Origin: Haloferax volcanii DS2 | GTDB taxonomy: Archaea > Halobacteriota > Halobacteria > Halobacteriales > Haloferacaceae | DNA length: 32,000 nt | Assembly (NCBI RefSeq): GCF_000025685.1 | Contig: NC_013966.1 | Span: 210,001-242,000, forward strand | Direction of reading: 5' to 3' | Shown here: positions 2,777 through 32,000 of the stretch, piece after piece | Position numbering within the stretch: position 1 is the first letter of the stretch | How the letters are laid out: every line of letters starts with the position of its first letter | Position numbers and translations under genes: made by a program | The notes under the pieces: generated by a model | Database searches by the model: none | Told to the model about the DNA's origin: nothing | What the model saw: only the letters and a program-made list of their open reading frames with translations

Positions 2777-2800
2777 CCGAACACCCTCCGTATTTTCAGC

Positions 2801-6355: not shown

Positions 6356-6358
6356 CCC

Positions 6359-7354: not shown

Positions 7355-7355
7355 A

Positions 7356-18387: not shown

Positions 18388-18391
18388 CAAA
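18383..18391 (+). promoter_or_regulatory. CATAACAAA box overlapping the TAA stop of the deacetylase-like gene, 59 nt upstream of the 438-aa ORF
   Basis: Exact 9-mer. Confidence 0.35.
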
Positions 18392-18449
18392 GCCACGAGC
18401 GGGCTTCCTCTCGGACAGCCAACACCCTTCAGAGAGGCTATTCTGCACC

Positions 18450-19766
18450 ATGAAACAACCAACGCAGTATCACCGCGACGGCGACGACGCGGCCGACACG
18501 GAGCGACTCCAGCGGTACGTCGAGGTGCTCGACGACGTGCTCGACTACGCCCGCGACCGCGACTACAAGGGCTGGGACTACGGCGACGGCATGAGCAGCA
18601 GGCTCCTGCTTTCGGTCCCCATCGACAACCGCTGGTTCAACCTCGCGGTCCAGGAGTTCATCAAGCGCTCGCCCGTCAACGTCCGCCCGCTGTTTCTCGT
18701 GGAGCAACGCCGGAACTTCAAAGGCATCACGCTGTTCGCCATGGCGAACCGGACCCGCGCCCAGTTGGCCGAGCGGTTCGACGGCGACCGCCCGGCGGAG
18801 ACGTACCGCGACGACGCGGCATCGCTGACGGAGTGGCTCGTCGAGAACCAGGCCAGGGGGTACAGCGGCTTCGCCGGCAGTCACCGCCACGTCATCCAGC
18901 ACATCTCCGGTCGCAACGGCCCGCGGTCGGGGATTCCGCACTCACCGAACATCGTCTCGACGGCCTACGGCGTCAAGGCGCTCCTCGCGGGCCGGGAGTT
19001 CGACCCCGACTACCCGGACATCGCCAAAACCGCCGTGGACGTGCTGCTCGACGACCTCAACTACCGGCCGAAAGACGACGGCGCGGTCATGGACTACTAC
19101 CTCTCGCACCCGAAGGACAGCTACACGCTCAACGCGCTGGCCATCGGGGCGCGGTTGTTCGTCGAGCTGTACGACCACTTCGGCGACGAGGAACTGCTCG
19201 AACGCGCCGAGAAGGTGTACGACTTCGTCGCGTCGAAGCAGACCGACCGCGGCGGGTGGTACTACCGCGAGCCCGCGAGCGCCTCGCACCTCTCGATGGA
19301 TAACCACCACAACGGCTTCATTGTCGAGTGCTTCCAGCGCTACGAACAGGTCGTCGGCAGCGGACGGTACGACGAGACGCTCGCTCGCGGCCTCGACTTC
19401 TACGCCCGCGAACTGTTCGACGAGGACGGCGCGCCCAACTTCGACGAGGAGCATCCCTACCCGCGGGACATTCACGCGACGGCGCAGGGCATCCTCGTGT
19501 TCGCCTACGCCGGCCAGTACGACCGCGCCGAGCGCGCCATCGACTGGGCGCTCGCGAACATGTACGTCCCGTCCGAGGGCCGGTTCTACTTCCGCAAACA
19601 CCGCTTTTACACCAAGCGCATGACGCTCATGCGGTGGTGTCAGGCGTGGATGGCCTACGCCATCGCCGAGTACGTCGCCACCAGAATCTCCGGGGAACCG
19701 ACGCACGGCTACGGCATCGACGCCGACGGTATCGAGCGCCTACGGGCGGCGGCAGAGACCCCCTGA
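18450..19766 (+). CDS. Conserved hypothetical protein, aromatic-rich and probably all-helical; function unknown
   Basis: 438-aa ORF with haloarchaeal acidic composition and no competing credible frame. Motifs such as GGWYYRE, DNHHNGF and RWCQAW suggest a carbohydrate-active toroid-like fold, but I could not place it in a family. Confidence 0.7.
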   Translation: MKQPTQYHRDGDDAADTERLQRYVEVLDDVLDYARDRDYKGWDYGDGMSSRLLLSVPIDNRWFNLAVQEFIKRSPVNVRPLFLVEQRRNFKGITLFAMANRTRAQLAERFDGDRPAETYRDDAASLTEWLVENQARGYSGFAGSHRHVIQHISGRNGPRSGIPHSPNIVSTAYGVKALLAGREFDPDYPDIAKTAVDVLLDDLNYRPKDDGAVMDYYLSHPKDSYTLNALAIGARLFVELYDHFGDEELLERAEKVYDFVASKQTDRGGWYYREPASASHLSMDNHHNGFIVECFQRYEQVVGSGRYDETLARGLDFYARELFDEDGAPNFDEEHPYPRDIHATAQGILVFAYAGQYDRAERAIDWALANMYVPSEGRFYFRKHRFYTKRMTLMRWCQAWMAYAIAEYVATRISGEPTHGYGIDADGIERLRAAAETP

Positions 19767-19776
19767 CGGCGTGTAG

Positions 19777-19794
19777 GCCGGCGCGAACGCCGGC
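19777..19794 (+). terminator. GC hairpin just after the stop of the 438-aa ORF (possible terminator or RNA-stability element)
   Basis: gccggcg-cgaa-cgccggc, a perfect 7-bp stem starting 11 nt after the TGA at 19764..19766. No T-tract follows, so the function is uncertain. Confidence 0.35.
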
Positions 19795-19803
19795 TAGTCG
19801 CTT

Positions 19804-19812
19804 CATAACAAA
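19804..19812 (+). promoter_or_regulatory. CATAACAAA box, 225 nt upstream of FemAB-like paralog 1
   Basis: Exact 9-mer, 10 nt after the hairpin at 19777..19794. Confidence 0.35.
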
Positions 19813-20036
19813 TCTCCGTCCTCCCGTCACAGTAGTTCGAGAATGTCTTTTCGAATGATACACGCCGACGCGACCCGACCGAATCGCGGGTCGATTTACG
19901 GAGCCGCCGAATCGGCCGGTGAATCGGCTTATTTCGGCCGGTTCGGTCGGACTGGACATCTCGAACGCGTCGCCCGGAATCGCTGCTGTCGACGACAACG
20001 GACGCAGTGCGAAGACCGCCGGTCGGCCCGCAGTCT

Positions 20037-21125
20037 ATGACCATCGAAATCGTCGAGTTCGACGAGCGCGACCGCGACGAGTGGGACACGTACGTCAGTC
20101 GGTCGAGTCAGGCGAGCCTCTTTCACCAGTACGAGGCGCTTCGGCTCCAAGCGAACTACTCGAACTCGAAGCTCCACCTGCTCGTCGGCTACAAGACCGA
20201 GGAGCCGGTCGGCCTGTTCCCCGTCTTCGAGATTCGAAAGGGGCTGGTCAAGACGGCGTTCTCGCCGCCGCCGCACATCGGCGTCCCCTACCTCGGGCCC
20301 GTGATGCTCGACGCCGGCAACATCAAGAGCCGGAAGTTCGAGCGCCGCCGCAACCAGTTCATCGACGGCTGTACCGAGTGGCTGGGCGAACACATCGGCC
20401 CGAGCTACACGCACGTCCGCGTCGGTGACTACTACACCGACATGCGGACGTTCCTGTGGGGCGGCTGCGACGTGTCGCCGAAGTACACCTACAACGTCGA
20501 CCTGACCCGCGGCGAAGAGGACCTCCTCATGTCGTTCAGCCGGAGCGCCCGCCGGAACATCCGCGACGGTCGAAAGCTCGTCTCGGGTATCGAGGAGGGC
20601 GACCGCGACGACATCTGTTCGATTCTCACGCTGGTCAAGAACCGCTACGAGGAACAGGATTTGTCGTTCGACGTGCCGCCGCAGTTCGTCATGGACCTGT
20701 ACGACTCGCTCCCGAAAGGCCAAGTTCGGCCCTACGTCTTCCGGTACGACGGGGCGTTCGTGAGCGGAATCGTCGTCCTCCAGAACGGGGACACGCTCTA
20801 CCGCTGGCTCGGCGGCGTCCGCCCCCAGTTCGATTTCGGCATCGACGTCAACGACCTGCTGGACTGGCGCATCATGCGCGACGGCATGGACGACGGGATG
20901 CGCCGCTACGACCTCGTCGGCGCGAACAACCGCCGACTCAACCGCTACAAGAGCAAGTACAACCCCGAACTCGTCACGTTCTACCAGATAGAACACGGCG
21001 CGCTCCCGGTCAGAACCATCGCGCACCTGTACAAGAGCCGCCTCGGCCCCGGCATCGAGATGCTGTCCCGGGGAAACGGGACGAGCCTCCCGTCGCGGCT
21101 CGTCTCGGGGTTCCTCCACCGATGA
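20037..21125 (+). CDS. FemAB/CelD-like GNAT-fold transferase (paralog 1)
   Basis: The C-terminal YDLVGANNRRLNRYKSKYNPELV matches the YDxGG...FKxxFGG signature of FemAB/Acetyltransf_6 proteins. ATG 20037 (MTIEIVEF) is preferred over the track start at 20007. Confidence 0.7.
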   Translation: MTIEIVEFDERDRDEWDTYVSRSSQASLFHQYEALRLQANYSNSKLHLLVGYKTEEPVGLFPVFEIRKGLVKTAFSPPPHIGVPYLGPVMLDAGNIKSRKFERRRNQFIDGCTEWLGEHIGPSYTHVRVGDYYTDMRTFLWGGCDVSPKYTYNVDLTRGEEDLLMSFSRSARRNIRDGRKLVSGIEEGDRDDICSILTLVKNRYEEQDLSFDVPPQFVMDLYDSLPKGQVRPYVFRYDGAFVSGIVVLQNGDTLYRWLGGVRPQFDFGIDVNDLLDWRIMRDGMDDGMRRYDLVGANNRRLNRYKSKYNPELVTFYQIEHGALPVRTIAHLYKSRLGPGIEMLSRGNGTSLPSRLVSGFLHR

Positions 21126-21213
21126 CGACCCGCTCGACGAGCCGACCGACGCACCGACCGACGCGTCAACCCACGCACCGACCGACGACCACCCACCCAC
21201 ACGACCACGACCT

Positions 21214-22251
21214 ATGTCACAACTCCGTATCGAACCCCTGAGCCTCGACGAGTGGGGAGCCGCGCTCCCCGCGTCGGGCACCGAAGTCTTCCACACCCCC
21301 GCGGTGCTCGCCGCCATCGACGAGCACTTCGACGGCGAAATGCACCTGTTCGGCGTCTTCAAGGGCCAAGAGCCGGTCGCGCTGTTCCCGACGTTCGTCC
21401 GCCGAAACCCCCTCGGACGGGTCGTCGTCTCGCCGCCGCCGTCGATGGCGATTCCGTACATCGGCCCGGTGATGATGCCGAACAGCCCGAAACAGAGCGC
21501 CTACGAGTCGGTGAACCGCGAGTTCGCCGACCTCGTGGTCGAGGAGCTCGGCATCCGCTCGAACCGGACGTTCGTCCGCCTGCTCTGTTCGCCGGCGTAC
21601 CTCGACCCCCGCCCGTTCGAGTGGACCGGCTTCGCGGTCAAACCCTCGTTTACCTACCGGCTCGACCTCGGCGGGCGCTCGCTCGACGAGATACAGGCCC
21701 AGTTCAGCAGCAGCCTCCGCCGCGAGATTCGGCAGGCGCGCGAACTCGACATCACCATCGCGGACGAGGGACTCGACGGCGCTCGCGTCGTCTACGACGA
21801 CGTGGTCTCGCGGTACGACGAGCAGGACGAACCGTTCGGGATGCCGTGGGAGTTCGTCGAGTCGCTAGTCGAGAACCTCGGCGACCGGTGTCGGGTGTAC
21901 GTCGCCCGCGACCCAGGCGGCGAGTATCTCAGCGGGATGATTGTCACCTTCTCCGACGAGGTGGGCTACTTCTGGCTCGGCGGTGCGCGGGGAGAGTACG
22001 ACGGCGTCAGCATCAACAGCCTGCTGCACTGGACCATCATCGAGGACATCGTCGAAGACGAGGCGCTCGCGTCGGTCACGAAGTACGACCTCGTCGGCGC
22101 GAACACGGAGCGGCTCTGCAACTACAAATCCAAGTTCGGCGGCGAACTCGTCCCGTACTACGTCGTCGAGTCGACCGGCGTCGGGATGAACCTCGCAAAG
22201 CGGACCTACCAGCTCCTGTACAAGGGGTCGGAGCGAATCGCCACGAAGTGA
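21214..22251 (+). CDS. FemAB/CelD-like GNAT-fold transferase (paralog 2)
   Basis: A clear paralog of 20037..21125 (EPVALFPTF vs EPVGLFPVF; SPPPSMAIPYIGPVM vs SPPPHIGVPYLGPVM; YDLVGANTERLCNYKSKFGGELV). Confidence 0.7.
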   Translation: MSQLRIEPLSLDEWGAALPASGTEVFHTPAVLAAIDEHFDGEMHLFGVFKGQEPVALFPTFVRRNPLGRVVVSPPPSMAIPYIGPVMMPNSPKQSAYESVNREFADLVVEELGIRSNRTFVRLLCSPAYLDPRPFEWTGFAVKPSFTYRLDLGGRSLDEIQAQFSSSLRREIRQARELDITIADEGLDGARVVYDDVVSRYDEQDEPFGMPWEFVESLVENLGDRCRVYVARDPGGEYLSGMIVTFSDEVGYFWLGGARGEYDGVSINSLLHWTIIEDIVEDEALASVTKYDLVGANTERLCNYKSKFGGELVPYYVVESTGVGMNLAKRTYQLLYKGSERIATK

Positions 22252-22305
22252 GTCGTCGGGGTCACACGACGCACCGCAGCGCCCGCGAGACGCGGGCGAC
22301 CGCGC

Positions 22306-22602
22306 TCACGCCATCTGCTGTGTTTGGATGACGTGCCAGATGTTCTCGGCGTCGTCGGTGATGCCGTACACCCGCCCTTTTCGGCGCTGTTCCGGGACGA
22401 GCAGTTCCACGAGCGAGCGGTCTCTGAGTTCCTGTAACGCCCGCGAGACGTGGGCGACCGCGCTCTCGGAGTCGGTGGCGATTTGCGTCGGCGTCGCCGG
22501 CCCCTCCGAGAGTCTATCGAGAACGGAGACGCGGTAGCGAGAGCTGATGACGAAGCCCACGTCGTCCCACGGCACGTCGTCGGTTCCACCGACGGAGCTC
22601 AC
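22306..22602 (-). CDS. Small winged-helix-turn-helix transcriptional regulator
   Basis: 98 aa. RYRVSVLDRLSEGPATPTQIATDSESAVAHVSRALQELRDRSLVE is an ArsR/MarR-like wHTH pattern. The start is a GTG with a GAGGTG SD upstream (22611..22616 on the + strand). Confidence 0.8.
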   Translation of the reverse strand: MSSVGGTDDVPWDDVGFVISSRYRVSVLDRLSEGPATPTQIATDSESAVAHVSRALQELRDRSLVELLVPEQRRKGRVYGITDDAENIWHVIQTQQMA

Positions 22603-22707
22603 GCAACGCCCACCTCGCTTAGGGCGGCGGGGCGTTCGGCGGTCGTGACAGCCAACGGGGACGGGACCGCCGACCGTGACAGAGACGAAACTACCGAAAA
22701 CAGACGA

Positions 22708-22724
22708 GTTAACGGAACGTTAAC
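22708..22724. promoter_or_regulatory. GTTAAC-N5-GTTAAC dyad, candidate operator upstream of the wHTH regulator gene
   Basis: Two palindromic AT-rich hexamers 5 nt apart in GC-rich intergenic DNA, ~105 nt upstream of the regulator start at 22602. Confidence 0.3.
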
Positions 22725-23014
22725 CGCGATGTCGGCGGGTGCCCGGCGTGCCGGCCGCATCGGTTCGGTGCGCATTCGTTCGTTAGTACGAACTTAATTA
22801 CATAAAGTCGTCGTTTGGATTATATTCGGCTATTCCTGAGTGTCTCGAGTTTATGGATGTCACGCTGACAGGAGTTCGGTCGAGTGCCCGTCGGCGTGGA
22901 GGAGGCTCGGCGGTCGACGGCGACGCGGCGATGCAGCGGCACGGCGATGCAGGCGACGCGCGGGAGGACGCGGCCTCGGCTCAGAATCCGGAATAGCTAC
23001 GGCGACCGGCGGAA

Positions 23015-23902
23015 ATGCACGACTCGATGACCGACACCTCGTCTTCGCTTCGAATCCTCCTCACCAACGACGACGGCATCGACGCGCCCGGCATCGCCGC
23101 CATGCGCGAGGAACTCACCGCCGTCGGCGACGTGACCGTCGTCGCGCCCGCCGAGAACCAAAGCGGCGTCGGCCGCGCCCGCAACGAACACGCGGTCCGC
23201 CGCGACCACCCGTGGGGGTACGCTCTCGAAGGAACCCCCGCGGACTGCGTCGCCTACGCCCTTCGCGGCCTCGACGCCGACTTCGATATCGTCGTCTCCG
23301 GTATCAACGACGGCCCGAACGCGGGCAACTACGTCGTCGGCCGGTCGGGAACCGTCGGCGCGGGCGTCGAGGCCGCGTTCCTCGGGACGCCCGCCGTCGC
23401 CGTCTCCAGCTACCACGCCAGGGACTTCTTCTGTCACCCGCCCGAGGAGTACGACTTCTCCCGTCCCGCACGGGTCGCCCGTGCCCTGACCGAGCGCGTC
23501 TTCGGGACCGACGTGTTCGACGAAGTCGACCTCCTGAACGTCAACGCCCCGGCGGACGTGCCGAGCCCCCGAATGCGCGTGACCCGCCCCTTCGCGGACT
23601 ACGACCAGCAGGTCGACCACGACCCGGACGCCGGCGCGCTTCCGGACGGCGACCGCGAACACGACCTCGACGACGACGAGGTGTACGTCCGGTTACAGGA
23701 CATTTCGTGGCCGGACTCCGTCGGCTTCGAGAACCCGTTCCCGCTCGACGACGAACACCGCGACCGCTATCCGGTCGGGAGCGACCGCCGCGCGATGGTC
23801 GACGGCGAAGTGAGCGTCTCGCCCCTCGCGGTCCACCACGGCCACGCGACGGACCCGCGGCTGGCGAGCATAGTCGAGAGCCTCTCCGAACAGGTGGAGT
23901 AG
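23015..23902 (+). CDS. surE: 5'/3'-nucleotidase SurE
   Basis: The N-terminal ILLTNDDGIDAPGI signature and a later SGINDGPN motif. Confidence 0.93.
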   Translation: MHDSMTDTSSSLRILLTNDDGIDAPGIAAMREELTAVGDVTVVAPAENQSGVGRARNEHAVRRDHPWGYALEGTPADCVAYALRGLDADFDIVVSGINDGPNAGNYVVGRSGTVGAGVEAAFLGTPAVAVSSYHARDFFCHPPEEYDFSRPARVARALTERVFGTDVFDEVDLLNVNAPADVPSPRMRVTRPFADYDQQVDHDPDAGALPDGDREHDLDDDEVYVRLQDISWPDSVGFENPFPLDDEHRDRYPVGSDRRAMVDGEVSVSPLAVHHGHATDPRLASIVESLSEQVE

Positions 23903-23929
23903 CGCGGAAGTCAGCCGGAAGCGACGACG

Positions 23930-24334
23930 CTACGACCGCGCCAACTGCCCGGTCTGCGAGAGGTACGCGGCGAGGTCCGACGTGGCAATCATCCCGATGA
24001 CGCCCTCCTCCTCGTCGACGACGGGCATGTGGTGAAAGCCGTGTTCGGTCATCGACTCCGCGACGGAGAGGATGGAGTCCTGCGCGCCCGCGGTAATCAC
24101 GTCCGTGGTCATGTACCGCTCGACGGTCGTCTGCGCTTTCGGCTGGCTCTTGGCGACGATGTCGACGAAGTCCGTCGTCGTCAGGATGCCTTCGAGCCGG
24201 TTGTCCTCGTCGACGACGATGACCGAACTGATGTTGTTGTCGAGAATCAACTGCGCCGCGTCTTCGACGAGCGTGTCTGGCGTGACCGTGTGGAGGGTCG
24301 TGGACATGAGTCTCGCGACGAATACGTCTTCCAT
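23930..24334 (-). CDS. CBS-domain pair protein
   Basis: 134 aa from ATG 24334 (MEDVFVARLMSTTLHTV). It has two CBS repeats (SSVIVVDEDNRLEGILTTTD and HHMPVVDEEEGVIGMIATSD). The track ORF extension to 24796 is antisense to msrA and is not credible. Confidence 0.88.
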   Translation of the reverse strand: MEDVFVARLMSTTLHTVTPDTLVEDAAQLILDNNISSVIVVDEDNRLEGILTTTDFVDIVAKSQPKAQTTVERYMTTDVITAGAQDSILSVAESMTEHGFHHMPVVDEEEGVIGMIATSDLAAYLSQTGQLARS

Positions 24335-24357
24335 GGTAATTGCTGACAGACAGGGCG

Positions 24358-24365
24358 GATAAATG
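24358..24365 (-). promoter_or_regulatory. TATA-like box (ATTTAT on minus strand) ~27 nt upstream of the CBS gene ATG; implies a leaderless mRNA
   Basis: An AT patch in GC-rich DNA at the canonical archaeal TATA-to-TSS distance from ATG 24334. Confidence 0.45.
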
Positions 24366-24446
24366 TTGGCTTCGCGTACAGTTTCGTGGGGAGGTACATC
24401 GGGATGACGACCGCGGGCCCCGGCCGCGACTGCCCCCGCCGCGGGG

Positions 24447-24453
24447 CTTAATT
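24447..24453 (+). promoter_or_regulatory. TATA-like box (CTTAATT) ~26 nt upstream of the msrA ATG; implies a leaderless mRNA
   Basis: An AT patch at the canonical distance from ATG 24476. Confidence 0.45.
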
Positions 24454-24475
24454 CCCCGGCGACGTAACCGAGGCT

Positions 24476-25045
24476 ATGGGAAGCACACAGACTGCGACGT
24501 TCGGCGGCGGCTGTTTCTGGTGCGTCGAAGCCGCGTTCAAGGAACTCGACGGCATCAGCGAGGTCACCTCTGGCTACGCCGGCGGCGAGACGGAGAACCC
24601 GAGCTACGAGCAGGTCTGTTCGGGGAGCACCGGCCACGCCGAGGTCGTGCAGGTCGACTACGACCCCGCGGTCGTCGGCTACGACGAACTGCTCGACGTG
24701 TTCTTCGCGGTCCACGACCCGACCCAACTCAACCGACAGGGGCCGGACGTGGGGACGCAGTACCGCTCTATCGTCCTGTTCCACGACGACGAACAAAAGC
24801 GACAGGCGTCGGCCTACATCGATGCGCTCGACGAGGAGTACGACGACGAGGTGGTCACGGAGTTAGTTCCGCTCGAGACCTTCTACGAGGCGGAGGAACA
24901 CCACCAGGACTACTTCGAGAAGGTAAGCACGGCTGACGGAAATACTAACGACGCCTACTGTCAGTTCAACGTCGTCCCGAAGATAGAGAAGGTCCGGGAG
25001 AAGTTCGCGGACAAGGTGAAGGCGGAGGCGGAGCCGGACGCCTGA
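24476..25045 (+). CDS. msrA: Peptide-methionine (S)-S-oxide reductase MsrA
   Basis: FGGGCFWCVEA active-site motif, and GHAEVVQVDYDP. Confidence 0.95.
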   Translation: MGSTQTATFGGGCFWCVEAAFKELDGISEVTSGYAGGETENPSYEQVCSGSTGHAEVVQVDYDPAVVGYDELLDVFFAVHDPTQLNRQGPDVGTQYRSIVLFHDDEQKRQASAYIDALDEEYDDEVVTELVPLETFYEAEEHHQDYFEKVSTADGNTNDAYCQFNVVPKIEKVREKFADKVKAEAEPDA

Positions 25046-25085
25046 CCCTGCTGGAGGCCGGTCCGCTCGTCGTCACCCCCCCGGG

Positions 25086-26375
25086 TTAGGTGGTCGGGAG
25101 CGCCCGGGCAGTCGTAGTGAGCCGCGCCTCCGTAGCGAACGGGAGCGCCAGCCCCGCGAGAGGCCGGCCCTCATCCTGCCGGAAGCCGTTGGCGAGGTCA
25201 TCCGCCAGCCCACGGAGCGCGTCCGGCTCCATCTCTGCCAGCCGGGCAAGAGCGCGGAAGCCCTCCCGGTGGTACTCCCGGACGCCAGGGTAGGCGTCCA
25301 CGTCCTCCCCGTCTACCGCCGCCACGGACCACTCCGTCGGGGAGAGCGAGAGCGTCCGCACGTCTACCTGCGGCGGCTTCCCCGGCGGCGCGTCCAGGAG
25401 GTCCGCCCAGTCTGCCCGGAGGTCCTCCCGGGCCATCACCCGCTCCTCGCCGCCGTAGACGACGTGGAGGTGGGCCACGAGGTCCCTCTGTGGTTCGAGG
25501 ACCGCCAGGTAGTCCGGGACGTGCCCGGGTCGTGGCCGGTCCGCCCGGGAGTACCGGAAGCGGGAGTGGAGGTCGTCCAGCGCCTCCCGTAGCGTCTCCA
25601 CGGAGCCGTAGACGGACGGGACGCACTCCCGCGGGAGTGTGAGCGTCACCCACGAGGCCACGTCGTACCGAGTTGTGAGCGCGTCCGCCGCCGTCTCGAA
25701 CCGCTCCCGCGTTCCCGCCGCCTTCTCTGGAGCCGTGAAGCGGTCCCCCGCCGGGAGGCCGTCCCGGTCCGGGAGGTGAAGCGTCTTCGCCTCCCCCTCC
25801 GCCGTGAGCATCGTCTCCGCGTGGTCCGCCAGGAGGTGAAGCAGGAGGGACCGCTGGCCGTCCGTCTCCACCCTCCGGACCGACCGGAGAACCGACGCGG
25901 CCCGGTCCCGCGGGAGCCGGTCCCAGCGGTCCGTCGCGTCAGGGGCGCTCCCGGGCGTTCCGGAATTACGAATGCTACGTATCAAGGCGACGGCTTTCCC
26001 GGTGGGGCGTACCCACAGCAAATCGCCGGACGGCTTCCGGGTGTCGAAGAAATCGCCGTACCGCTGGATGAAGCGGTACGCCCGTCCGTACTCGGGGCCG
26101 CCGGAGGCCCATCCGTCCCCGTAGACTTCGGTCAGGAGGGCGTGGAACGGGATGCCCTCCGGCGTCACGTCCGGGTGTAGTACGGCGGTTTTCAGGAGAA
26201 GCGACTTCTCCATCGCGTTCGGTTCGTCCGCCCACGGGACCGGCGCGTCCCGGAGCGGGACGAAGGGAGCGGCCCCCTTCTCCCCGGGACTTTTTGGCGA
26301 CCCCTCCGGAGCGGCGTAGCCCCCGCGGTCCGAACCTTCATTTCCGAGCGTCCCGTCACCCGACACGACGACCAC
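25086..26375 (-). CDS. Rolling-circle replication initiator-like protein (HUH endonuclease superfamily)
   Basis: WVTLTLP resembles RCR motif I, and VAHLHVVY resembles the HUH motif II. A candidate Tyr motif (GVREYHREG) lies downstream. The track start is GTG 26375. GTG 26366 sits 6 nt after a GGAGGTG SD and may be the true start. ATG 26213 is another option. Confidence 0.55.
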   Translation of the reverse strand: MVVVSGDGTLGNEGSDRGGYAAPEGSPKSPGEKGAAPFVPLRDAPVPWADEPNAMEKSLLLKTAVLHPDVTPEGIPFHALLTEVYGDGWASGGPEYGRAYRFIQRYGDFFDTRKPSGDLLWVRPTGKAVALIRSIRNSGTPGSAPDATDRWDRLPRDRAASVLRSVRRVETDGQRSLLLHLLADHAETMLTAEGEAKTLHLPDRDGLPAGDRFTAPEKAAGTRERFETAADALTTRYDVASWVTLTLPRECVPSVYGSVETLREALDDLHSRFRYSRADRPRPGHVPDYLAVLEPQRDLVAHLHVVYGGEERVMAREDLRADWADLLDAPPGKPPQVDVRTLSLSPTEWSVAAVDGEDVDAYPGVREYHREGFRALARLAEMEPDALRGLADDLANGFRQDEGRPLAGLALPFATEARLTTTARALPTT

Positions 26376-26462
26376 CTCCCGCCCGGAGCGTGCCGTCGTC
26401 CTCTACCTCAGCGGTGATGGCGGGCGCTGGGACCCCCGTCGTCCTCGGTTTCACCGGCACCG

Positions 26463-26645
26463 TCACTCTCCACGAGCGGCGGCTTCGGCGTCGAGGAGCG
26501 CCCGTGCCACCCAGGAGACGGGGAGGTCACTGCGCGCCAGGTCCTCCAGGTCGTCCCGGTGGTCCCGGACCGCGGAGAGGTCCCGCCCGGAGATGGGTCT
26601 GTTCGTACGTCCGTTGCGGTCGTTGGAGTCCGTGTTCTGGCTCAT
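26463..26645 (-). CDS. Small hypothetical protein (60 aa) upstream of rep
   Basis: ATG-initiated ORF with acidic/charged composition, in the position where RCR plasmids often carry a small copy-control gene. No motif recognised. Confidence 0.4.
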   Translation of the reverse strand: MSQNTDSNDRNGRTNRPISGRDLSAVRDHRDDLEDLARSDLPVSWVARALLDAEAAARGE

Positions 26646-26704
26646 GGCTCATGGTCCCAGCATGGTCGATGCCATTGGCCCTCGGACTCTGGTGTCGTCT
26701 GTCT

Positions 26705-26740
26705 CTTACGGGCGCTCTGGTCCGTAGAGCGTCCCGTAAG
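26705..26740. repeat. Imperfect inverted repeat / hairpin (14-bp stem with one bulge, 7-nt loop)
   Basis: cttacgggcgctct (26705..26718) pairs with agagcgtcccgtaag (26726..26740). Confidence 0.8.
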
Positions 26741-26893
26741 CGATTAGGTCCCGGCGGGAGAAGGATGGAGTGTCGAGGTCCGGGTCCTTCTCCGGTCCCG
26801 CCTTTCGCTAATCACAGAGTAGTTACTACGCTAATCCCTTAAATCTGCGGAGTACGGGGCTTCTACCTCCTGAATAGGGCTAACTCAGACTAA

Positions 26894-27010
26894 TTAGCGG
26901 AACGTGTCCGGCGAGCAGGCGGGACAGTCGCGTTCTCCCTTCAGCACAGGGGCGAGGTTCTTCGGCCACGTCTCCCCGCAGGAGCCACACCGGACGGGGC
27001 CGTTGTCCAT
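26894..27010 (-). CDS. 38-aa zinc-ribbon protein (CxxC-x17-CxxC), not in the ORF track
   Basis: My own translation is MDNGPVRCGSCGETWPKNLAPVLKGERDCPACSPDTFR*. Its ATG (27010..27008) overlaps the TGA of the upstream ORF by 1 nt (TGATG), which suggests translational coupling. Confidence 0.5.
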   Translation of the reverse strand: MDNGPVRCGSCGETWPKNLAPVLKGERDCPACSPDTFR

Positions 27011-27345
27011 CAGTCCCCCTCCGCCGAGTCGTCGTCTCCGTCCTGTGCGTCGGCCAGGAACGCCTCCGCCTCGAAGCCGGCCTCTCTCCCGGCGTCGGGG
27101 AGGCCGAGCGTGTGAGCGGCGTCCTCGGCGCTCTCGTCGTCCGCTACCACGACCGGAGCCGAGTGGTCCAGCGCGGCGGCCTCCTCGACGTACTCCCGGG
27201 CCTCCGCGGGGAGGTCGAAGGCGTCCAGAGAGACGCCCACGAGGAGTTTCGCGTCTCCCGGCGGCCCGTCCGCGTCCCCCGGACGGTCCTGCTCCCGGTA
27301 CTGCCGGATGGCCCGCTCCACGTCTCTACGAGTCGGTCCGGCCAT
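27010..27345 (-). CDS. Hypothetical acidic protein (111 aa)
   Basis: The ATG directly abuts the upstream stop (TAGATG). Haloarchaeal acidic composition. No recognisable domain. Confidence 0.55.
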   Translation of the reverse strand: MAGPTRRDVERAIRQYREQDRPGDADGPPGDAKLLVGVSLDAFDLPAEAREYVEEAAALDHSAPVVVADDESAEDAAHTLGLPDAGREAGFEAEAFLADAQDGDDDSAEGD

Positions 27346-27786
27346 CTACTTCACCCGAAACGGGCTTTCGCTCTCCCGTTCTTCCTGTTCTAAGGCTTCG
27401 ATACGCTCCAAGAGGTCCTCTAAGTCGCTCTGCCGACGCCACTCTTCGAGGTCGAGGAAGGTCTGCGCCGCCTTCCGGTACTCCTCGTCCTCCAGCAGTT
27501 CCCGGGCGCACCGCCACAGGAACGCCTCTCCCTCCAGCGTGGCCGCGTCATCGTCCGCGGCCTCGTTGAGGTATGACCCGAGACGCTGTACGTCTTTCCG
27601 GACCTGTTCGCGGCTCACGTCGTAGCGTCGTCCGTAGGCGGCGTAGTTCAGGAGCCGAGGGCTTCCCGCCTCCTCGATGAGGGAGAGCAACTCGGCGCGT
27701 CTCTCCCGGTACGAGTATTCCGCCGGGTCCTTAGCGTCCGGGACCTCGACAGCGCGGTAGTCTTCCGTCATGTCAAGCGTAGTCAA
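27346..27786 (-). CDS. Hypothetical protein with a possible HTH segment and a coiled-coil C-terminus (146 aa)
   Basis: YGRRYDVSREQVRKDVQRLGSYL resembles a helix-turn-helix recognition region. The track start is TTG 27786; ATG 27771 is an alternative. Confidence 0.55.
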   Translation of the reverse strand: MTTLDMTEDYRAVEVPDAKDPAEYSYRERRAELLSLIEEAGSPRLLNYAAYGRRYDVSREQVRKDVQRLGSYLNEAADDDAATLEGEAFLWRCARELLEDEEYRKAAQTFLDLEEWRRQSDLEDLLERIEALEQEERESESPFRVK

Positions 27787-28007
27787 CCCTCCGCGGACGG
27801 ACCAGCGCCGCTCTCGTCGGCGCTACGACTGTCTCCGTCCGTCTCTGTTGCTGTTGACAGGCGTAGGTCCCCGGGGCCGTACCGCTCCGGGAGCGAGAGG
27901 TCCGCGGGACCGACCGGCTCCCGGACCAGCTCCCCGCCGAGCGTCGGCTCTGCGTCGGCCTCGTGGTCGCCGGCTCCGTCCTCCGGGGGAAGCGTCTCGT
28001 CGGTCAC
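27783..28007 (-). CDS. Hypothetical low-complexity acidic protein (74 aa), doubtful
   Basis: GTG start 10 nt after the upstream stop. Only its position in the compact operon supports it. Confidence 0.3.
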   Translation of the reverse strand: MTDETLPPEDGAGDHEADAEPTLGGELVREPVGPADLSLPERYGPGDLRLSTATETDGDSRSADESGAGPSAEG

Positions 28008-28017
28008 GGGACGGCCC

Positions 28018-28752
28018 TCAGGCAGGCGTGCCGTCCTCTCCGGCGTCCTCGTTCTCCAGCGCGGCGAGGGACGCGAGCGCCCGGCGGCGGGCCTGGTTCC
28101 CGTCGTCGTCCAGGTCCCGGCTGTCCGGCATGGCTCCCCGGAGGAACGTGGCGAACTCCGAGAGCGGGTCCGAGAGGTCCCCGCCGTCCTCGACGTACTG
28201 CTCTACGGCGTCCTTGGCCGCCTCCGCGACGGCCTCCTGCCGCTCCAGTTCGTCCTCGATGGACTCCAGGAGGTCCACGGCGTTCGCGCTCTTGCTCAGG
28301 TCCGCGTCCGCCGCGGCCTCCCGGAGGACCTGCTTCGCGCTCGGCGTCGGGCCGTCGATGGCCGCCAGCCGGTCCCGGATGTCCTCCAGGAGCCGGAGGC
28401 GCTTCTCCTCGGTCGTGAGGGACGCCTCCTCGATGTCCGCCCGGGAGAGCGAGAGGCTGACCCGCTCCTCGTCTCCCTTCGCTACGTCCGTCCCGGTCGG
28501 GTCCCAGTCGTCCAGGGCGTCCTCCAGCGTCTCCTGGGCCGACTTCTCCACGTCCTCTCCCGCTCCGAGGATGCCGTCGAAGCCGGAGCCGGGGCCGTCG
28601 GCGTCCCGGTCCTCCGCCGGGGAGCGTGGCGCGTCGTGGTCGTCGTGGACCTTCCCGGATGTCCGGCCCTTCGCTCGGCGGTATTCTCTGTACGTCCGCG
28701 GGGAGTCGTCCGCGTCCTCCCCGTTCGTGCCGTCGTCGGAGTCGTGCGGCAT
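28018..28752 (-). CDS. Hypothetical highly acidic protein with a predicted coiled-coil region (244 aa)
   Basis: First gene of the compact minus-strand operon, with an ATG start. Heptad-like helical stretches (EEKRLRLLEDIRDRLAAI, LLESIEDELERQEAVAEAAKDAVEQY). No recognisable domain. Confidence 0.6.
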   Translation of the reverse strand: MPHDSDDGTNGEDADDSPRTYREYRRAKGRTSGKVHDDHDAPRSPAEDRDADGPGSGFDGILGAGEDVEKSAQETLEDALDDWDPTGTDVAKGDEERVSLSLSRADIEEASLTTEEKRLRLLEDIRDRLAAIDGPTPSAKQVLREAAADADLSKSANAVDLLESIEDELERQEAVAEAAKDAVEQYVEDGGDLSDPLSEFATFLRGAMPDSRDLDDDGNQARRRALASLAALENEDAGEDGTPA

Positions 28753-28987
28753 GGACGGTCGTAGGTGAGCCAGCGGCTTAGTTTCCTATGTAAGCATACT
28801 GAGTTTGTTTGGCGCAAATACCCTACGTAGTCGGGTGATTCAGTATCAGAAGTCGGGTAGGTCCCGGTAAACTGAAGCCGCTCCGGACGGTACGACGAGA
28901 CGGGCCGGTCCTCTCGCTCGGAGCGGCCTGAAGACGGACACGCGCCTCTCGTAGGCTCATGTGTTACACCGTCGTCGGTGTTCTCCA

Positions 28988-29033
28988 CCCGGGTCGGCGG
29001 CTTCCCGCCGGCCCGGGCGTACTCAGGAGTACG
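28988..29033. repeat. Two adjacent GC-rich hairpins/palindromes
   Basis: cccgggtcggcgg (28988..29000) pairs with ccgccggcccggg (29005..29017), 13 bp with one T-G pair and loop cttc. It is followed at once by the palindrome cgtactcaggagtacg (29018..29033). Confidence 0.8.
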
Positions 29034-29081
29034 ATACAATATCCGAACTCTTCGATATAATGTCAGCAACGCCTAACGACA

Positions 29082-31625
29082 CTATACGTCGAGCGTCTGC
29101 TGGCCTTCCAACTCGAACGTCAGATAGTCCGATTCGACCCCTTCCCAGGACATATCTAAGGTATCCTGAATATCGACGGTCTCCATCACCGCTCGAACAA
29201 TACGACAGAACTTCCGAATATCACTACTCGAAAGAGTCTCACCGATACGGTTCTGAATCCACTTCTTCACGACTGGCCTATCACCAATCTCGTACTCCCA
29301 CACATCCGCCGGAACTGGGGCGAAGTACTGGTCAGAATTGATATACAGCCGCTCTTCTTCCTCATCGTAGTGCCGGTAGTACTCGCCAGTATTCTCCGAA
29401 ACCTCATTCTCACCATCACCATCTTCCTCAGTGTGAAGCTGCACGCCCGGCGACTCCAAATCAGGGTGGTCGAGTAAGTGTAACTGCACCAAATTCGCGC
29501 CCAGGGACTCGTACTTCCGGAAGAGTGCTTCGTCCTCAGGGAACGGAATTTTCGGGAAGTCCGTCTCCATGAACTCCGAGTACTTCAGACGGTACGTCCG
29601 CGTGTACAACACAGCATACGTGTAGTTGAACACTTCCTCAGGCGTTACCTCGTCGCTGTAGACCTCAGAAAGCTGGGAGACGATACGCGGATTCACGTTC
29701 GTCTGTCGAGATGTGTTTTGGAGTTTTGAGGACGTTTCATCCGGCGCGTTCGGGTACAGATACAGCGGGAACTGGTAATTCACCTCCTTCGTAGACATCC
29801 CATGGTGCGTCATCAGTCCATCCGTCACGAACGCGTGGTCGAACGGCGTTCGTTCCGTTCGCCGCGGCACTGAGAGGCTGATGTTGTCGCTCGCTAGCAT
29901 ATGTTTCGACAATCGCCCAGCACGGCGATGTACTGCGACGTGTTCGTCGTAGACGGTGTATTCCTTGTCGAACGGAGACGTCTGGATTTGAACGATTTTA
30001 TCCTCCCAGTTTGTGGTTTCCAGATGTTCTTTCGCGTCGCTGTAGAGCCACTGGTCTTGGCTACACAGATTGAAGTACTCGCGCGCTTCGCTTTCTGTGT
30101 CTGTAGCAAGTAGCTGTCTGACTTTCTGTTTCTGGCGTTCCGGGGTGAGTGAGATAGCGAATTCGTTGTGCGTGGTTACGATACCGGGTGCGGGGTCGCC
30201 GTATTCTGAGAAAATTTGTGGCACTTTCACCCAGTCGTGATAGGAACTTGCGAGTTCCTCGTCCCGAGGTACGAAGAGGTAGTGCGGCTCACGCGGAGTC
30301 ACCTCTTCCCACTCGATATCGTTCATGTCGTTGCCGCTCAGTGCTTCGTACTTCTCCTCTCTCGTTCCCCACAGGTCGCTGTGGTAGATATCAGCGTATT
30401 CGCCGTCATCCACGTTGTCGGTTTTTACAAAGATACTGATGGCGACACCCTGTTGGATGTCGAACACGTTCTCGTCAGTACCGCCTTCCGGGGGTTCCTC
30501 CAGCCTGTTCGAGTTCCCGTGTAGGTCAAGCACGTAAATTTCGTCGAACTCCAACAGCAACTGCTCACGCATCCCCATGAACGTCGGATTGTCGATGTAC
30601 GCATGATTCGTGATGTACCCCAGCGTACCTTCAGCGGCGTCAGCGAGTTTCCACTGTGCCCAGCGGATGAACTTCACATAGTCGTCGTGCAGCCACTTCG
30701 CCTGCCCACGCTTCTGTAACTCCGGATATCCCTCTTTGTAGTCCTCGACGAGGGATTCAATCCACTCCCCCTGATTTTCTGAGTGCCCTGAGTATGGCGG
30801 ATTCCCTAAAATAGCCAAAATTGGGGTGTCCTCCTTCACTTCGTGGGCCATCTCCGCTTCCTCGGCGAGCGACGCCGCGAACGGCAGGTGCGTCTGTTCC
30901 GCTTCCTCTGGCTCTAACGTATTAGTCAGGAATAACTTCACGCGGTCATCGTCGTCGAGTTCATAGCCCTGTTCTTCGAACAGAATCGCCATTTTCAGAT
31001 GGCCGATAGTGTACGCCGCGACGAGTAGCTCGAACGAATAGAAGTCCTTCAAGACGTGGTCGGACAGCAGTGCTGACACCCCACCACGACCGTATTTCTC
31101 CGCGTACTCCTCGACCGCCAGTCGCGTCGCCGCAGCTGTGAACGTCATCGTACCTGCGGCAGGGTCAAGAATAGTAACATCTTCGTCCGCAAGACCGTCT
31201 CCGCGCCCAAGGTCGGTTTTCAGCACAGAGTTCACTGACTTCGTAATCCACTCTACCACCGGCTCTGGCGTGTAGTACACGCCTTTCTGCTGGCGAGTTT
31301 CCGGGTCGTACTCTTCGAGGAACGTCTCGTAGAAGTGAACAAGCGGTGTGGATTCGGCTCTATCCGCGTAGAACTCGCTCAGAATATCGTCTACGTTCGT
31401 ACCGGAGAGTACGTCTGCGACGTCATCAACAATCCATTCGATTTCTGTTGGCGGGTCGGACGTGGAGATGAAGTCAAAGATATCTTTCAGAATACCGATA
31501 GTGGACGGGATAGCGTCGGCAGCATCAGTGCGGCTGAACTCGCCTGATACCCGCGTTCGAGCGGTGAGTAAACCGTACGTGATGGTTTGGCTGTAGATAT
31601 CAGCGAACTCTCGCCGGCATGCGTT
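29082..31625 (-). pseudogene. Type IIG / type ISP-like N6-adenine DNA methyltransferase with C-terminal specificity region; N-terminus truncated
   Basis: Motif I LDPAAGTMTF and motif IV GNPPYSG. The frame stays open upstream of the track start (GTG 31280) to 31625 and encodes conserved-looking FADIYSQTITYGLLTAR and LVHFYETFLEEYDPETRQQKGVYYTPEPVV. That 345-nt stretch has no ATG/GTG/TTG and ends at an in-frame TAG (31626..31628) beside a transposase-like ORF end. Confidence 0.7.
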
Positions 31626-31630: not shown

Positions 31631-32000
31631 TTAGTAGCGATCAAAGCCGAACTCACCTCGTTCAACCTGCTCACGTAACCGTTGCCTGTGTGGATTTGGA
31701 TTACGCGACGCCCACAGCAACAGCTCGTCCAAATCCGGCAGTTCGTAGCCCAACTCGATCATGAGATACAACTGGATTAGATGACCGTGGCGTTCCACGG
31801 CGAGCGAACAGCGACGCCGAGGGAGCCGCGACGCCGACGAGTCGGCGTCTGCGGCGGCTTCGCCCTCTCGCTGTCTTGCCTCGAGCGACCGTAACTCATC
31901 CACGATTACACGACTCATCATCAACGAAATTGCGGCCATGATGATCAGCGCCTCGATGATGTAGCCGTCGGTCGTCTTGATCTCGTCCAAGCCGAACCGC
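31631..32000 (-). CDS. C-terminal part of a probable DDE transposase (IS element end); continues beyond the window
   Basis: The frame is open to the window edge (..RFGLDEIKTTDGYIIEALIIMAAISLMMSRV..). This resembles the C-terminal helix after the catalytic Glu of IS4/IS5-type transposases. It abuts the truncation point of the methylase. The IS family was not determined. Confidence 0.5.
   Translation of the reverse strand, partial: RFGLDEIKTTDGYIIEALIIMAAISLMMSRVIVDELRSLEARQREGEAAADADSSASRLPRRRCSLAVERHGHLIQLYLMIELGYELPDLDELLLWASRNPNPHRQRLREQVERGEFGFDRY

What the first reader, a model, noticed from the sequence alone, without database searches (positions are those of the whole stretch)
25046..29081. 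Integrase-less HUH-Rep module with a compact operon of unknown acidic proteins, between msrA and a broken methylase
A ~4-kb block begins 40 nt after the msrA stop, and every ORF in it is on the minus strand. The 3'-most ORF (25086..26375) carries RCR-like motifs (VTLTLP, AHLHVVY). Upstream of it are a 60-aa ORF and then five tightly packed ORFs of 244, 74, 146, 111 and 38 aa. Their junctions are a 10-nt gap, a 4-nt overlap or 11-nt gap, direct abutment (TAGATG) and a 1-nt overlap (TGATG). I recognise none of the five. They are extremely acidic; one has an HTH-like segment and one is a zinc ribbon. I see no integrase, capsid, membrane/spike protein or packaging ATPase, so the block does not fit a pleolipovirus-type provirus. 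RCR plasmids are also not expected to sit integrated without a recombinase. It could be a decayed plasmid, a Rep-mobilised (IS91/helitron-style) insertion, or an uncharacterised Rep-associated module.
Basis: partly seen in the sequence, partly recalled or inferred. Interest (0 to 1): 0.7.

Follow-up and report, generated by a model that had tools for sequence, protein, structure and literature searches.

The report
Stranded integrative rolling-circle plasmid remnant
The block is the immobilised remnant of a small mobile plasmid-like element that inserted into the msrA gene of Haloferax volcanii megaplasmid pHV4. It keeps a replication protein related to that of the pleomorphic virus HRPV-1, but it has lost the integrase that intact relatives carry.

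Summary
The window is Haloferax volcanii pHV4, and the 429-aa protein is HVO_A0231.

This protein is a genuine HUH rolling-circle Rep. A profile comparison with HRPV-1 ORF1 gives 96.5% probability, and Foldseek matches it to the same protein at E 4.5e-13. The TxT, HLH and Tyr368 motifs all align.

The lack of an integrase is a secondary loss. A 91%-identical relative (L001) has the same gene order preceded by a 450-aa tyrosine integrase. There the element is flanked by msrA on one side and by the displaced original msrA 3' end on the other.

Seven other Haloferax species have a 177-aa MsrA. It diverges from the 189-aa H. volcanii protein exactly after YFEK. The element therefore starts inside msrA, at 24923 after the 10-bp core CTTCGAGAAG, and supplies a substitute C-terminus.

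Similarity to the intact relative stops at 29030, 12 nt past where its integrase gene ends. Beyond that lies a 54%-GC segment with a truncated type IIG restriction-modification gene.

None of the proteins is a membrane, capsid or ATPase protein. I read the block as a decayed member of an undescribed family of small capsid-less integrative rolling-circle elements of Halobacteria. It is an ordinary kind of element but a new family, and of moderate interest.

The parts
24913..24922 (+). attR core CTTCGAGAAG, in msrA codons 146-149 (YFEK). This is the recombination junction between host msrA and the element.
   Evidence: The same 10 bp occurs at both ends of intact relative L001 (positions 61-70 and 5604-5613) and in the empty site of H. 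sulfurifontis.
24923..25045 (+). Element-borne substitute 3' end of msrA (VSTADGNTNDAYCQFNVVPKIEKVREKFADKVKAEAEPDA*). It replaces the native NPNDAYCQFHASPKVEKVREKFADKLAN*.
   Evidence: Seven Haloferax MsrA orthologues (177 aa) and 16 other haloarchaeal orthologues carry (K)NPxDAYC directly after YFEK or its local variant (YFAK, YYEK, YFDK). The H. volcanii protein diverges exactly there. L001 keeps the displaced native end beside its integrase.
25046..25085 (.). 40-nt spacer between the substitute msrA stop and the Rep stop. It is element DNA.
   Evidence: It aligns with L001 and L002 as part of one continuous block.
25086..26375 (-). HUH rolling-circle Rep (HVO_A0231). It has an N-terminal winged-helix-like region and a C-terminal nuclease domain, with motif I T244/T246, motif II H302-L-H304 and motif III Y368.
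26463..26645 (-). 60-aa ORF directly upstream of Rep. Its position suggests a small copy-control or regulatory protein, but this is inferred.
   Evidence: It is conserved in L001, L003, L017 and L018, always just upstream of Rep. dN/dS is 0.58. It has no family match.
26646..26893 (-). Conserved non-coding region. It holds an invariant TTTAAG box (26838-26843) followed by a hairpin (arms 26742-26759 / 26796-26813) and a second hairpin (26702-26743). It is a candidate internal promoter and/or replication origin.
   Evidence: TTTAAG and GCGAAAGGC are invariant in four elements. The DNA fold has z = -3.65. Four of 15 predicted pairs show compensatory changes among 4 sequences. Function is not shown.
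26894..27010 (-). 38-aa CxxC...CxxC zinc-ribbon protein.
   Evidence: Weak zinc-ribbon family matches. The ORF and its cysteines are conserved in L001 and L002, with related ORFs in L099 and L015.
27010..27345 (-). 111-aa acidic protein of unknown function.
   Evidence: Conserved in L001, L002 and L003. dN/dS is 0.39. No matches in Pfam, PHROGs, NCBIfam, PADLOC or phage records.
27346..27771 (-). 141-aa helix-turn-helix protein with long C-terminal helices (an alternative TTG start at 27786 gives 146 aa). It is the most conserved accessory gene and a probable DNA-binding regulator.
   Evidence: phrog_15023 at E 6e-30. Homologues carry Pfam HTH_11. The model has pLDDT 79, with only local HTH matches in the PDB. 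Homologues occur in tailed haloviruses: phiH/phiCh1 ORF95 (the next genes being a CxxC protein and terS), HSTV-1 gp53, HCTV-2 gp15 and HHTV-2 gp23.
27783..28007 (-). 74-aa acidic ORF. It is variable and may be unconstrained.
   Evidence: Present in L001 and L002, absent from L003. dN/dS is 1.0.
28018..28752 (-). 244-aa acidic protein of unknown function, the first gene of the operon. It recurs alongside Rep in divergent elements.
   Evidence: Homologues in L001, L003, L099, L015 and L016. No informative PDB, Pfam or PHROG match.
28753..29030 (-). Conserved upstream non-coding region, the presumed operon promoter. Position 29030 is the last base similar to intact relatives, equivalent to 12 nt after the L001 integrase stop.
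29031..31598 (-). Not part of the element. This low-GC (54%) segment sits where the integrase and attL should be. It carries an N-terminally truncated type IIG restriction-modification gene (29082-31598).
   Evidence: No integrase remnant was found.

Best explanation
Window 24923-29030 is a 4.1-kb remnant of a small site-specific integrative element that replicates by a rolling circle. It covers HVO_A0231 and the six ORFs upstream of it on H. volcanii pHV4.

Intact members are about 5.5 kb in L001 and about 6.7 kb in L003. They encode a tyrosine integrase with a C-terminal zinc ribbon, followed in one direction by the 244-aa protein, a variable small ORF, the HTH protein, the 111-aa protein, a zinc ribbon, a 60-aa ORF and the HUH Rep.

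Inferred life cycle, none of which is shown:
- The integrase recombines a short core in the element with the same core inside a host protein-coding gene.
- After excision, the circular double-stranded form is nicked by Rep Tyr368 at an origin and copied by rolling-circle replication. The conserved hairpin region at 26700-26815 is a candidate origin.
- The HTH and 60-aa proteins act as regulators.

What the sequences show directly: in Haloferax the target is CTTCGAGAAG in msrA codons 146-149, and the element carries its own version of the msrA 3' end so that the gene stays whole. In H. volcanii the integrase, attL and the displaced msrA end are missing, and a low-GC segment with a truncated restriction-modification gene sits in their place. 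The copy therefore cannot excise, although its ORFs are intact.
For: Rep identity:
- The HLH motif and motif I are invariant in 16 homologues.
- hhalign against HRPV-1 ORF1 gives probability 96.5%, E 7e-10, over 336 columns. It aligns VTLTLP with VTLTTD, AHLHVV with PHLHVC, and Y368 with the Tyr of YLSK.
- The AlphaFold model (pLDDT 74.6) matches HRPV-1 protein 1 at E 4.5e-13. It then matches microvirus and parvovirus Reps, and weakly the Helitron, B19 and PCV2 nucleases in the PDB.
- Distant family members pass the Pfam REP_ORF2-G2P threshold and also touch Rep_1, RepSA and Phage_GPA.

Integrative nature:
- L001 reads displaced msrA 3' end, integrase, the same six genes, Rep, then msrA.
- L003 and L004 have the same module plus an integrase inside an acyl-CoA dehydrogenase gene, with the core AGTGGTTCTnTTC at both junctions.
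- L015, L016 and L100 are further small elements carrying both Rep and an integrase.

Empty site:
- Seven Haloferax MsrA proteins are 177 aa and diverge from the H. volcanii protein exactly after YFEK.
- H. sulfurifontis is syntenic with window 15449-25014 and then continues with parA, DUF7970 and orc, with no element.

Loss of the integrase:
- There is no tblastn trace of it in the window.
- Similarity to L001 ends 12 nt after the L001 integrase stop, and GC drops from 69% to 54% there.

Not a virus:
- No protein has a hydrophobic segment.
- No HRPV-1 protein other than ORF1 matches.
- There are no capsid or ATPase family hits.
Against: - No circular or free form of any family member was recovered. 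None of eight contigs tested has a terminal overlap.
- The window Rep is itself below the Pfam threshold (19.2 against 27.8 bits), and PDB fold matches are weak (E at least 0.12).
- One homologue (P0010) has His in place of Tyr368.
- The origin and nick site are not identified. The haloarchaeal plasmid motif TCTCGGC, which I recalled from memory, is absent from the element.
- The att cores are only 10-13 bp and are inferred from one intact relative per target.
- I could not see pHV4 beyond position 32000. An integrase or attL separated from the block by the low-GC insertion cannot be excluded.
- The functions of five of the seven proteins remain unknown.
Confidence: 0.78

Rival explanations
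1. The block is a virus satellite. On this reading the family has no capsid of its own and is moved between cells by a helper virus (tailed halovirus or pleolipovirus), with the HTH protein and zinc ribbon acting in hijacking or packaging. This is compatible with the integrative-plasmid reading and adds a claim about how the element is transferred.
For: The HTH protein has homologues only in this element family and in tailed haloviruses (phrog_15023 at E 6e-30; tblastn E 7e-18 to 7e-11). In phiH and phiCh1 the next two genes after the homologue are a CxxC protein and then terS, echoing the order HTH, 111-aa protein, CxxC seen here. The Rep is of a virus type. Plasmid-derived satellites of haloarchaeal spindle viruses have been proposed (bioRxiv 10.1101/2025.02.15.638363).
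Against: No protein resembles a capsid, terminase, portal, packaging ATPase or pleolipovirus core protein. The HTH model shows only a generic HTH with helices. In HCTV-2 the homologue lies 2.5 kb from terL, among methyltransferase genes. No helper virus is identified.
Confidence: 0.1
2. The block is a defective alphapleolipovirus provirus that lost its virion module (VP3, VP4, ORF6/7, VP8) along with its integrase.
For: The Rep is homologous over its full length to HRPV-1 ORF1. Integrated pleolipovirus relatives that lost the morphogenetic module have been described for the beta genus (PMC5861418).
Against: The intact relative L001 is fully delimited by att sites, about 5.5 kb apart, and has no room for virion genes and none present. 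The same holds for L003. No window protein matches HRPV-1 ORF2 to ORF9 or has a membrane segment. The capsid-less state is therefore a property of the family, not of this copy.
Confidence: 0.06
3. The block is a Rep-mobilised transposon of the IS91, ISCR or Helitron type, which inserted without a recombinase.
For: The best PDB fold match, though weak (E 0.12), is the Helitron transposase. One distant homologue touches Helitron_like_N below threshold. The window copy has no recombinase.
Against: Relatives with the same gene order carry tyrosine integrases and sit between short direct repeats in a target gene. There is no Y2 transposase Pfam match. The element carries a tailored substitute msrA end, which is typical of site-specific integration.
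Confidence: 0.02
4. The block is a set of host genes, or a long-domesticated module conserved in the lineage, and not a mobile element.
For: GC content is host-like (69% against 68% for the neighbouring host genes). All ORFs are intact and mostly under purifying selection.
Against: The block is absent from the msrA locus of seven other Haloferax species and of H. sulfurifontis. Related copies sit in a different target gene. The Rep gene alone occurs at 91.6% nucleotide identity in an otherwise unrelated context (L018).
Confidence: 0.04

Closest known systems
Rolling-circle replication endonuclease of alphapleolipoviruses (HRPV-1 ORF1)
   Same: The two are homologous over nearly the whole length, including the N-terminal winged-helix-like part and the C-terminal HUH domain. 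Motifs I, II and III align.
   Different: Identity is only 19-25%. Motif III reads YHRE rather than YLSK. The surrounding genes are unrelated, and there are no VP3, VP4 or VP8 homologues. HRPV-1 has no integrase gene among its annotated ORFs.
Actinomycete integrative elements of the pSAM2 type (tyrosine integrase plus RepSA rolling-circle initiator)
   Same: The logic is the same: a small element sits integrated through a tyrosine integrase and is expected to replicate by a rolling circle after excision. A distant family member weakly touches Pfam RepSA. The pSAM2 biology comes from PMC2440964 (listed) and from established knowledge.
   Different: pSAM2 integrates into tRNA genes and carries conjugation genes (PMC2440964, abstract). 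It is bacterial. This family targets protein-coding genes, has no transfer genes, and is archaeal.
Integrative plasmids derived from betapleolipoviruses (SNJ2-type elements lacking the virion module; PMC5861418)
   Same: These are haloarchaeal elements with a virus-type replication gene and an integrase but no morphogenetic genes. They have been proposed to live as integrative plasmids.
   Different: Those use the SNJ2-type Rep (Rep-Arvir, DUF7845, related to Rep_trans; PMC13107129). That Rep is not an HUH Rep, and no DUF7845 match is found here.
[quoted passage not shown] 2019, PMC6668415)
   Same: They have small size and an HUH Rep. These two plasmid families are the reported sources of the two alphapleolipovirus Rep types.
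   Different: tblastn of the Rep against 72,556 plasmid records found nothing. As far as I know, those plasmids are free replicons without an integrase. Which of the two clusters this Rep belongs to was not tested.

Membership tests
HUH endonuclease superfamily (rolling-circle Rep) | Motif II: two His separated by a hydrophobic residue (HUH) | tested here: met
   H302-L303-H304 are invariant in 16 homologues and align with the HLH of HRPV-1 ORF1.
HUH endonuclease superfamily (rolling-circle Rep) | Motif III: catalytic Tyr on a helix downstream of HUH | tested here: met
   Y368 lies in the first turn of model helix 365-381. It aligns with the Tyr of YLSK in HRPV-1. It is conserved in 14 of 15 homologues covering the site; P0010 has His. 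Catalysis was not tested.
HUH endonuclease superfamily (rolling-circle Rep) | Fold similarity to known Rep nuclease domains | tested here: met
   Foldseek against BFVD matches HRPV-1 protein 1 at E 4.5e-13, followed by microvirus and parvovirus Reps. PDB matches (Helitron, B19 NS1, PCV2 Rep) are only weak, with E 0.12-1.3.
HUH endonuclease superfamily (rolling-circle Rep) | Curated Pfam threshold for a Rep family | tested here: inconclusive
   The window protein scores 19.2 bits against a cut-off of 27.8 for PF23343. Family members P0129 (39.1 bits) and P0063 (29.2 bits), found with the family profile, pass.
HUH endonuclease superfamily (rolling-circle Rep) | Site-specific nicking and joining at an origin | not testable with these tools
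   Only a candidate conserved hairpin region is available.
Pleolipoviridae provirus | Core virion genes (VP3-like membrane protein, VP4-like spike, ORF6/7, VP8-like ATPase) | tested here: not met
   phmmer of all seven proteins against all HRPV-1 proteins matches only Rep to ORF1. No protein has a hydrophobic segment. There are no family hits.
Site-specific integrative element (tyrosine recombinase type) | Integrase gene within the element | tested here: not met
   None is present in the window. Integrases are present in relatives L001, L003, L004, L015, L016 and L100. The window copy is therefore filed as a remnant and not as a functional member.
Site-specific integrative element (tyrosine recombinase type) | Direct-repeat att cores at both ends | tested here: inconclusive
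   One core (24913-24922) is present and no second copy exists in the window. Both cores are present in L001 and L003.
Site-specific integrative element (tyrosine recombinase type) | Empty target site in related genomes | tested here: met
   Seven Haloferax species have the 177-aa MsrA, and the H. sulfurifontis locus has no insert.
IS91 / Helitron-type rolling-circle transposon | Y2-type transposase and recombinase-independent insertion | tested here: not met
   There is no Y2_Tnp match. Relatives have integrases and att repeats.
Rep-Arvir (DUF7845, SNJ2-type Rep) | DUF7845 / Rep_trans-like domain | tested here: not met
   No such Pfam match at E up to 1. The family definition comes from PMC13107129.
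Virus satellite | Genes taken from, or acting on, a helper virus's morphogenesis or packaging | tested here: inconclusive
   Only the HTH protein is shared with tailed haloviruses, and its function is unknown. No structural or packaging homologue was found.

The most novel reading that the evidence does not exclude
The family may be a previously unrecognised class of capsid-less haloarchaeal elements that combine a pleolipovirus-type HUH Rep with an integrase aimed at protein-coding genes, and that depend on a helper virus for transfer. On this reading the HTH and zinc-ribbon gene pair, shared with the packaging-proximal region of phiH/phiCh1-type tailed viruses, would be the hijacking module. 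The stranded H. volcanii copy could then still interfere with incoming viruses.
Probability: 0.1. Interest if true: 0.75.

Novelty: new member of a known kind. Interest (0 to 1): 0.4.

Why it matters
- H. volcanii is the main genetic model for haloarchaea. Its mobile elements have been catalogued (Halfvol1-4, all chromosomal) and deleted to make a 'provirus-free' strain (PMC12091111). This pHV4 remnant is not in that catalogue, and searching the paper library for six locus tags (HVO_A0231 to HVO_A0236) found no paper that mentions them.
- It shows that the alphapleolipovirus-type Rep also serves a family of very small, capsid-less, integrase-bearing elements. That bears on how pleolipoviruses and plasmids exchanged replication modules.
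- The family integrates inside protein-coding genes. In one case it supplies a spare C-terminus for MsrA, and in another it splits an acyl-CoA dehydrogenase gene.
- An intact relative would be a compact candidate for an integrative or rolling-circle vector for Haloferax.
- The finding itself, a decayed integrated plasmid, is ordinary biology.

Tried and rejected
- tblastn of the Rep against phage and plasmid records found nothing. The relation to HRPV-1 appeared only through structure and profile comparison.
- Scans of the genome, viral and metagenome contig collections with the Rep profile added no new locus.
- A circularity test on eight contigs found no terminal overlaps. The unaligned tails of the Logan contigs are Illumina adapters and not circle junctions.
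- I searched for the nick motif TCTCGGC, recalled from memory for haloarchaeal rolling-circle plasmids. It occurs 16 times in the window (12.8 expected by chance) and never in the element.
- An Rfam scan of the block found nothing above chance.
- PADLOC gave no defence-system match for any element protein.
- The 244-aa family profile gave no informative match in the PDB or PHROGs.
- I considered an alternative att core, AACGAYGCCTACTGYCAG. I rejected it because it would require a native MsrA containing VSTADGNT, which none of 23 orthologues has.
- Spacers from the neighbouring CRISPR array, and from the L003 array, do not target the element. There is one weak 18-nt partial match to a zinc-ribbon region.
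- The restriction-modification gene of L018 is unrelated to the one beside the block.

Full report
**Where we are.** The 429-aa protein is identical to a Haloferax volcanii protein carried on a 635,786-bp contig, which is the size of megaplasmid pHV4 (my own knowledge). One cluster member is named HVO_A0231. The rest of the window fits pHV4. It holds type I-B cas genes and a CRISPR array at 74-8502, sugar-modification genes, then surE, a CBS-domain gene and msrA.

**The observation.**
- The proteins are acidic (pI 4.05-5.2, except the 38-aa zinc ribbon at 5.99), and none has a hydrophobic segment.
- Homologues exist for every ORF.
- dN/dS against the closest relative is 0.18-0.58 for five of the six ORFs tested. 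The 74-aa ORF is about 1.0. The 38-aa zinc ribbon keeps its cysteines in two relatives.
- The ORFs are therefore real genes, with some doubt about the 74-aa one.
- In relatives the '146-aa' gene starts at the ATG equivalent to 27771, giving 141 aa.

**The Rep.** By sequence alone the protein is below the threshold for Pfam REP_ORF2-G2P (E 0.0015) and finds nothing in phage or plasmid records. Four further lines establish it as an HUH Rep.
- In 16 homologues, T244, T246 and H302-L-H304 are invariant. Y368 is kept in 14 of 15.
- A profile search of 1.8 billion representative proteins finds 126 clusters. Distant members pass the Pfam Rep threshold and also touch Rep_1, RepSA and Phage_GPA.
- An AlphaFold model (pLDDT 74.6) has a beta-alpha-beta-beta-alpha-beta core with Y368 at the start of a helix. 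Its best match among viral models is HRPV-1 protein 1 (E 4.5e-13, 408 columns), then microvirus and parvovirus Reps. PDB matches (Helitron, B19, PCV2 nucleases; MarR-type winged helices for the N-terminal part) are weak.
- hhalign of the family against HRPV-1 ORF1 gives 96.5% probability over 336 columns, with all three motifs in register.

HRPV-1 ORF1 is the hallmark rolling-circle endonuclease of alphapleolipoviruses (PMC10599561). The window protein is not the SNJ2-type Rep-Arvir (DUF7845).

**Relatives show what the block was.**
- Metagenome contig L001 (Rep 91% identical) has the same genes in the same order. Directly upstream of the 244-aa gene it also has a 450-aa tyrosine integrase with a C-terminal zinc ribbon.
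- L003 and L004 (Rep 75% identical) have integrase, an HTH gene, the same module without the 74-aa ORF, Rep, and a 69-aa two-helix membrane protein.
- More distant Rep homologues sit in other 4-7 kb units that also carry an integrase (L015, L016, L100).
- The 244-aa family recurs beside Rep in L099, L015 and L016. A 60-aa-like ORF sits directly upstream of Rep in L017 and L018.
- In L018 only the Rep gene is shared with the window (91.6% nucleotide identity), so the Rep gene moves between contexts as a module.

**Junctions.**
- In L001 the element lies between the 5' part of msrA on the Rep side and a displaced msrA 3' fragment on the integrase side, encoding FFEKNPNDAYCQMHARPKVEKVR.
- Seven other Haloferax species have a 177-aa MsrA that is 85-93% identical to the H. 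volcanii protein up to YFEK. It continues NPNDAYCQFHASPKVEKVREKFADKLAN, whereas H. volcanii continues VSTADGNTNDAYCQFNVVPKIEKVREKFADKVKAEAEPDA.
- Sixteen further haloarchaeal orthologues also have the NP form.
- The H. sulfurifontis contig is syntenic with window 15449-25014 and then carries parA, DUF7970 and orc, with no element.
- Comparing attB (GACTACTTCGAGAAG|AACCC), attR (GACTACTTCGAGAAG|GTAAGC) and L001 attL (TTATATTCTTCGAGAAG|AACCCG) gives a 10-bp core, CTTCGAGAAG, at window 24913-24922.
- The element thus begins at 24923 and donates the last 40 codons of msrA. These keep the conserved DAYC and PK.EKVREKFA residues.
- In L003 the same type of element sits in an acyl-CoA dehydrogenase gene. 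The core AGTGGTTCTnTTC is at both junctions, and the gene is not repaired.

**The missing integrase.** tblastn with both integrases finds nothing in the window. Similarity to L001 stops at 29030, 12 nt after the L001 integrase stop. From 29031 the GC content falls from 69% to 54%. The next gene is a type IIG restriction-modification enzyme that lacks its N-terminal part. No second msrA fragment exists in the window. The simplest reading is that the integrase, attL and the displaced msrA end were deleted or replaced. I could not see pHV4 beyond 32000, so a distant integrase is not excluded.

**Accessory genes.**
- The 141-aa protein belongs to phrog_15023 (E 6e-30), and its homologues carry HTH_11.
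- Its model is a helix-turn-helix followed by long helices, with only generic matches.
- Its only relatives outside this element family are in tailed haloviruses. In phiH and phiCh1 the gene is followed by a CxxC protein and then terS. This prompts the satellite idea but does not establish it.
- The 244-aa, 111-aa, 74-aa and 60-aa proteins match nothing informative.
- Between the zinc-ribbon ORF and the 60-aa ORF lie an invariant TTTAAG box and a conserved hairpin with some compensatory changes. It could be an internal promoter, a leader RNA or the origin.

**Comparison with what is known.**
- In function it resembles integrative rolling-circle plasmids such as pSAM2, and the integrative plasmids proposed to derive from betapleolipoviruses (PMC5861418).
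- By Rep ancestry it is closest to alphapleolipoviruses, whose Reps are thought to come from pGRB1-like and pTP2-like plasmids (PMC6668415, PMC10599561).
- It is not a pleolipovirus provirus. Even the att-delimited intact relative has no virion genes.
- It is none of the four catalogued H. volcanii proviruses, which are all chromosomal (PMC12091111).
- I found no paper that describes the family or mentions six of these locus tags.

**Verdict.** The element is integrase-less only because this copy decayed. It is a new family of a known kind of element, and of moderate interest.

Noticed in passing
window 74-8502: Type I-B cas genes (cas8b C-terminal part, cas7, cas5, cas3, cas4, cas1), followed by a CRISPR array of 11 repeats (GTTTCAGACGAACCCTTGTGGGTTTGAAGC) at 7813-8502, in a 55-60% GC region. 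No spacer targets the element. Spacer 8041-8077 shares 18 nt (1 mismatch) with the zinc-ribbon region of L003 and 16 nt with L015, which is weak.
   Followed up: partly
window 29082-31598 and 31631-31990: An N-terminally truncated type IIG restriction-modification gene (it matches PADLOC profile positions 552-1062 of 1096) in a 54% GC segment. Upstream is a 119-aa ORF with no Pfam match. A draft H. volcanii assembly breaks at 31833, which suggests a repeat or insertion sequence there.
   Followed up: partly
L009-L013 (window about 24478-29023): About two dozen public H. volcanii sequencing-run assemblies carry the Rep; five of the contigs were examined. They are 4.2-4.3 kb and run from the msrA start or inside msrA (24478-24746) to near or upstream of the ATG of the 244-aa gene (28727-29023). 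Two end in Illumina adapter sequence. If these runs are RNA-seq, the operon is transcribed from close to its first ATG. The type of run was not verified.
   Followed up: partly
L018 5020-6277 compared with window 25083-26341: Only the Rep gene is shared (91.6% nucleotide identity). The neighbours differ completely: a serine recombinase, other small ORFs and an MmeI-like restriction-modification gene. The Rep gene appears to be exchanged between elements as a module.
   Followed up: partly
L003 11301-11510: The L003/L004 version of the element has an extra 69-aa protein with two strongly hydrophobic helices just after Rep, and an HTH_24 gene after the integrase. By my recollection, a small two-helix hydrophobic protein is reminiscent of spindle-virus capsid proteins. 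This was not tested.
   Followed up: no
L003 4976-4988 and 11735-11747: Here the element splits an AidB-like acyl-CoA dehydrogenase gene into a 241-aa and a 348-aa ORF without repairing it. An ATATATTCA motif lies 10-25 nt inside both element ends, and a similar TTATATTC lies next to the L001 core. These may be integrase binding sites.
   Followed up: partly
L003 25-2870: A CRISPR array of 44 repeats (GTTTCAGAAGGACCCTCGTTGGGTTGAAGC) lies about 2 kb from the L003 element. None of its spacers matches the element family.
   Followed up: yes
window 15449-25014 compared with L103: The sugar-modification, surE, CBS and msrA region is syntenic at 91-93% with an H. sulfurifontis contig. There msrA is followed by parA, DUF7970 and an orc/cdc6 gene, so in that relative msrA lies next to a replicon maintenance region.
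   Followed up: partly
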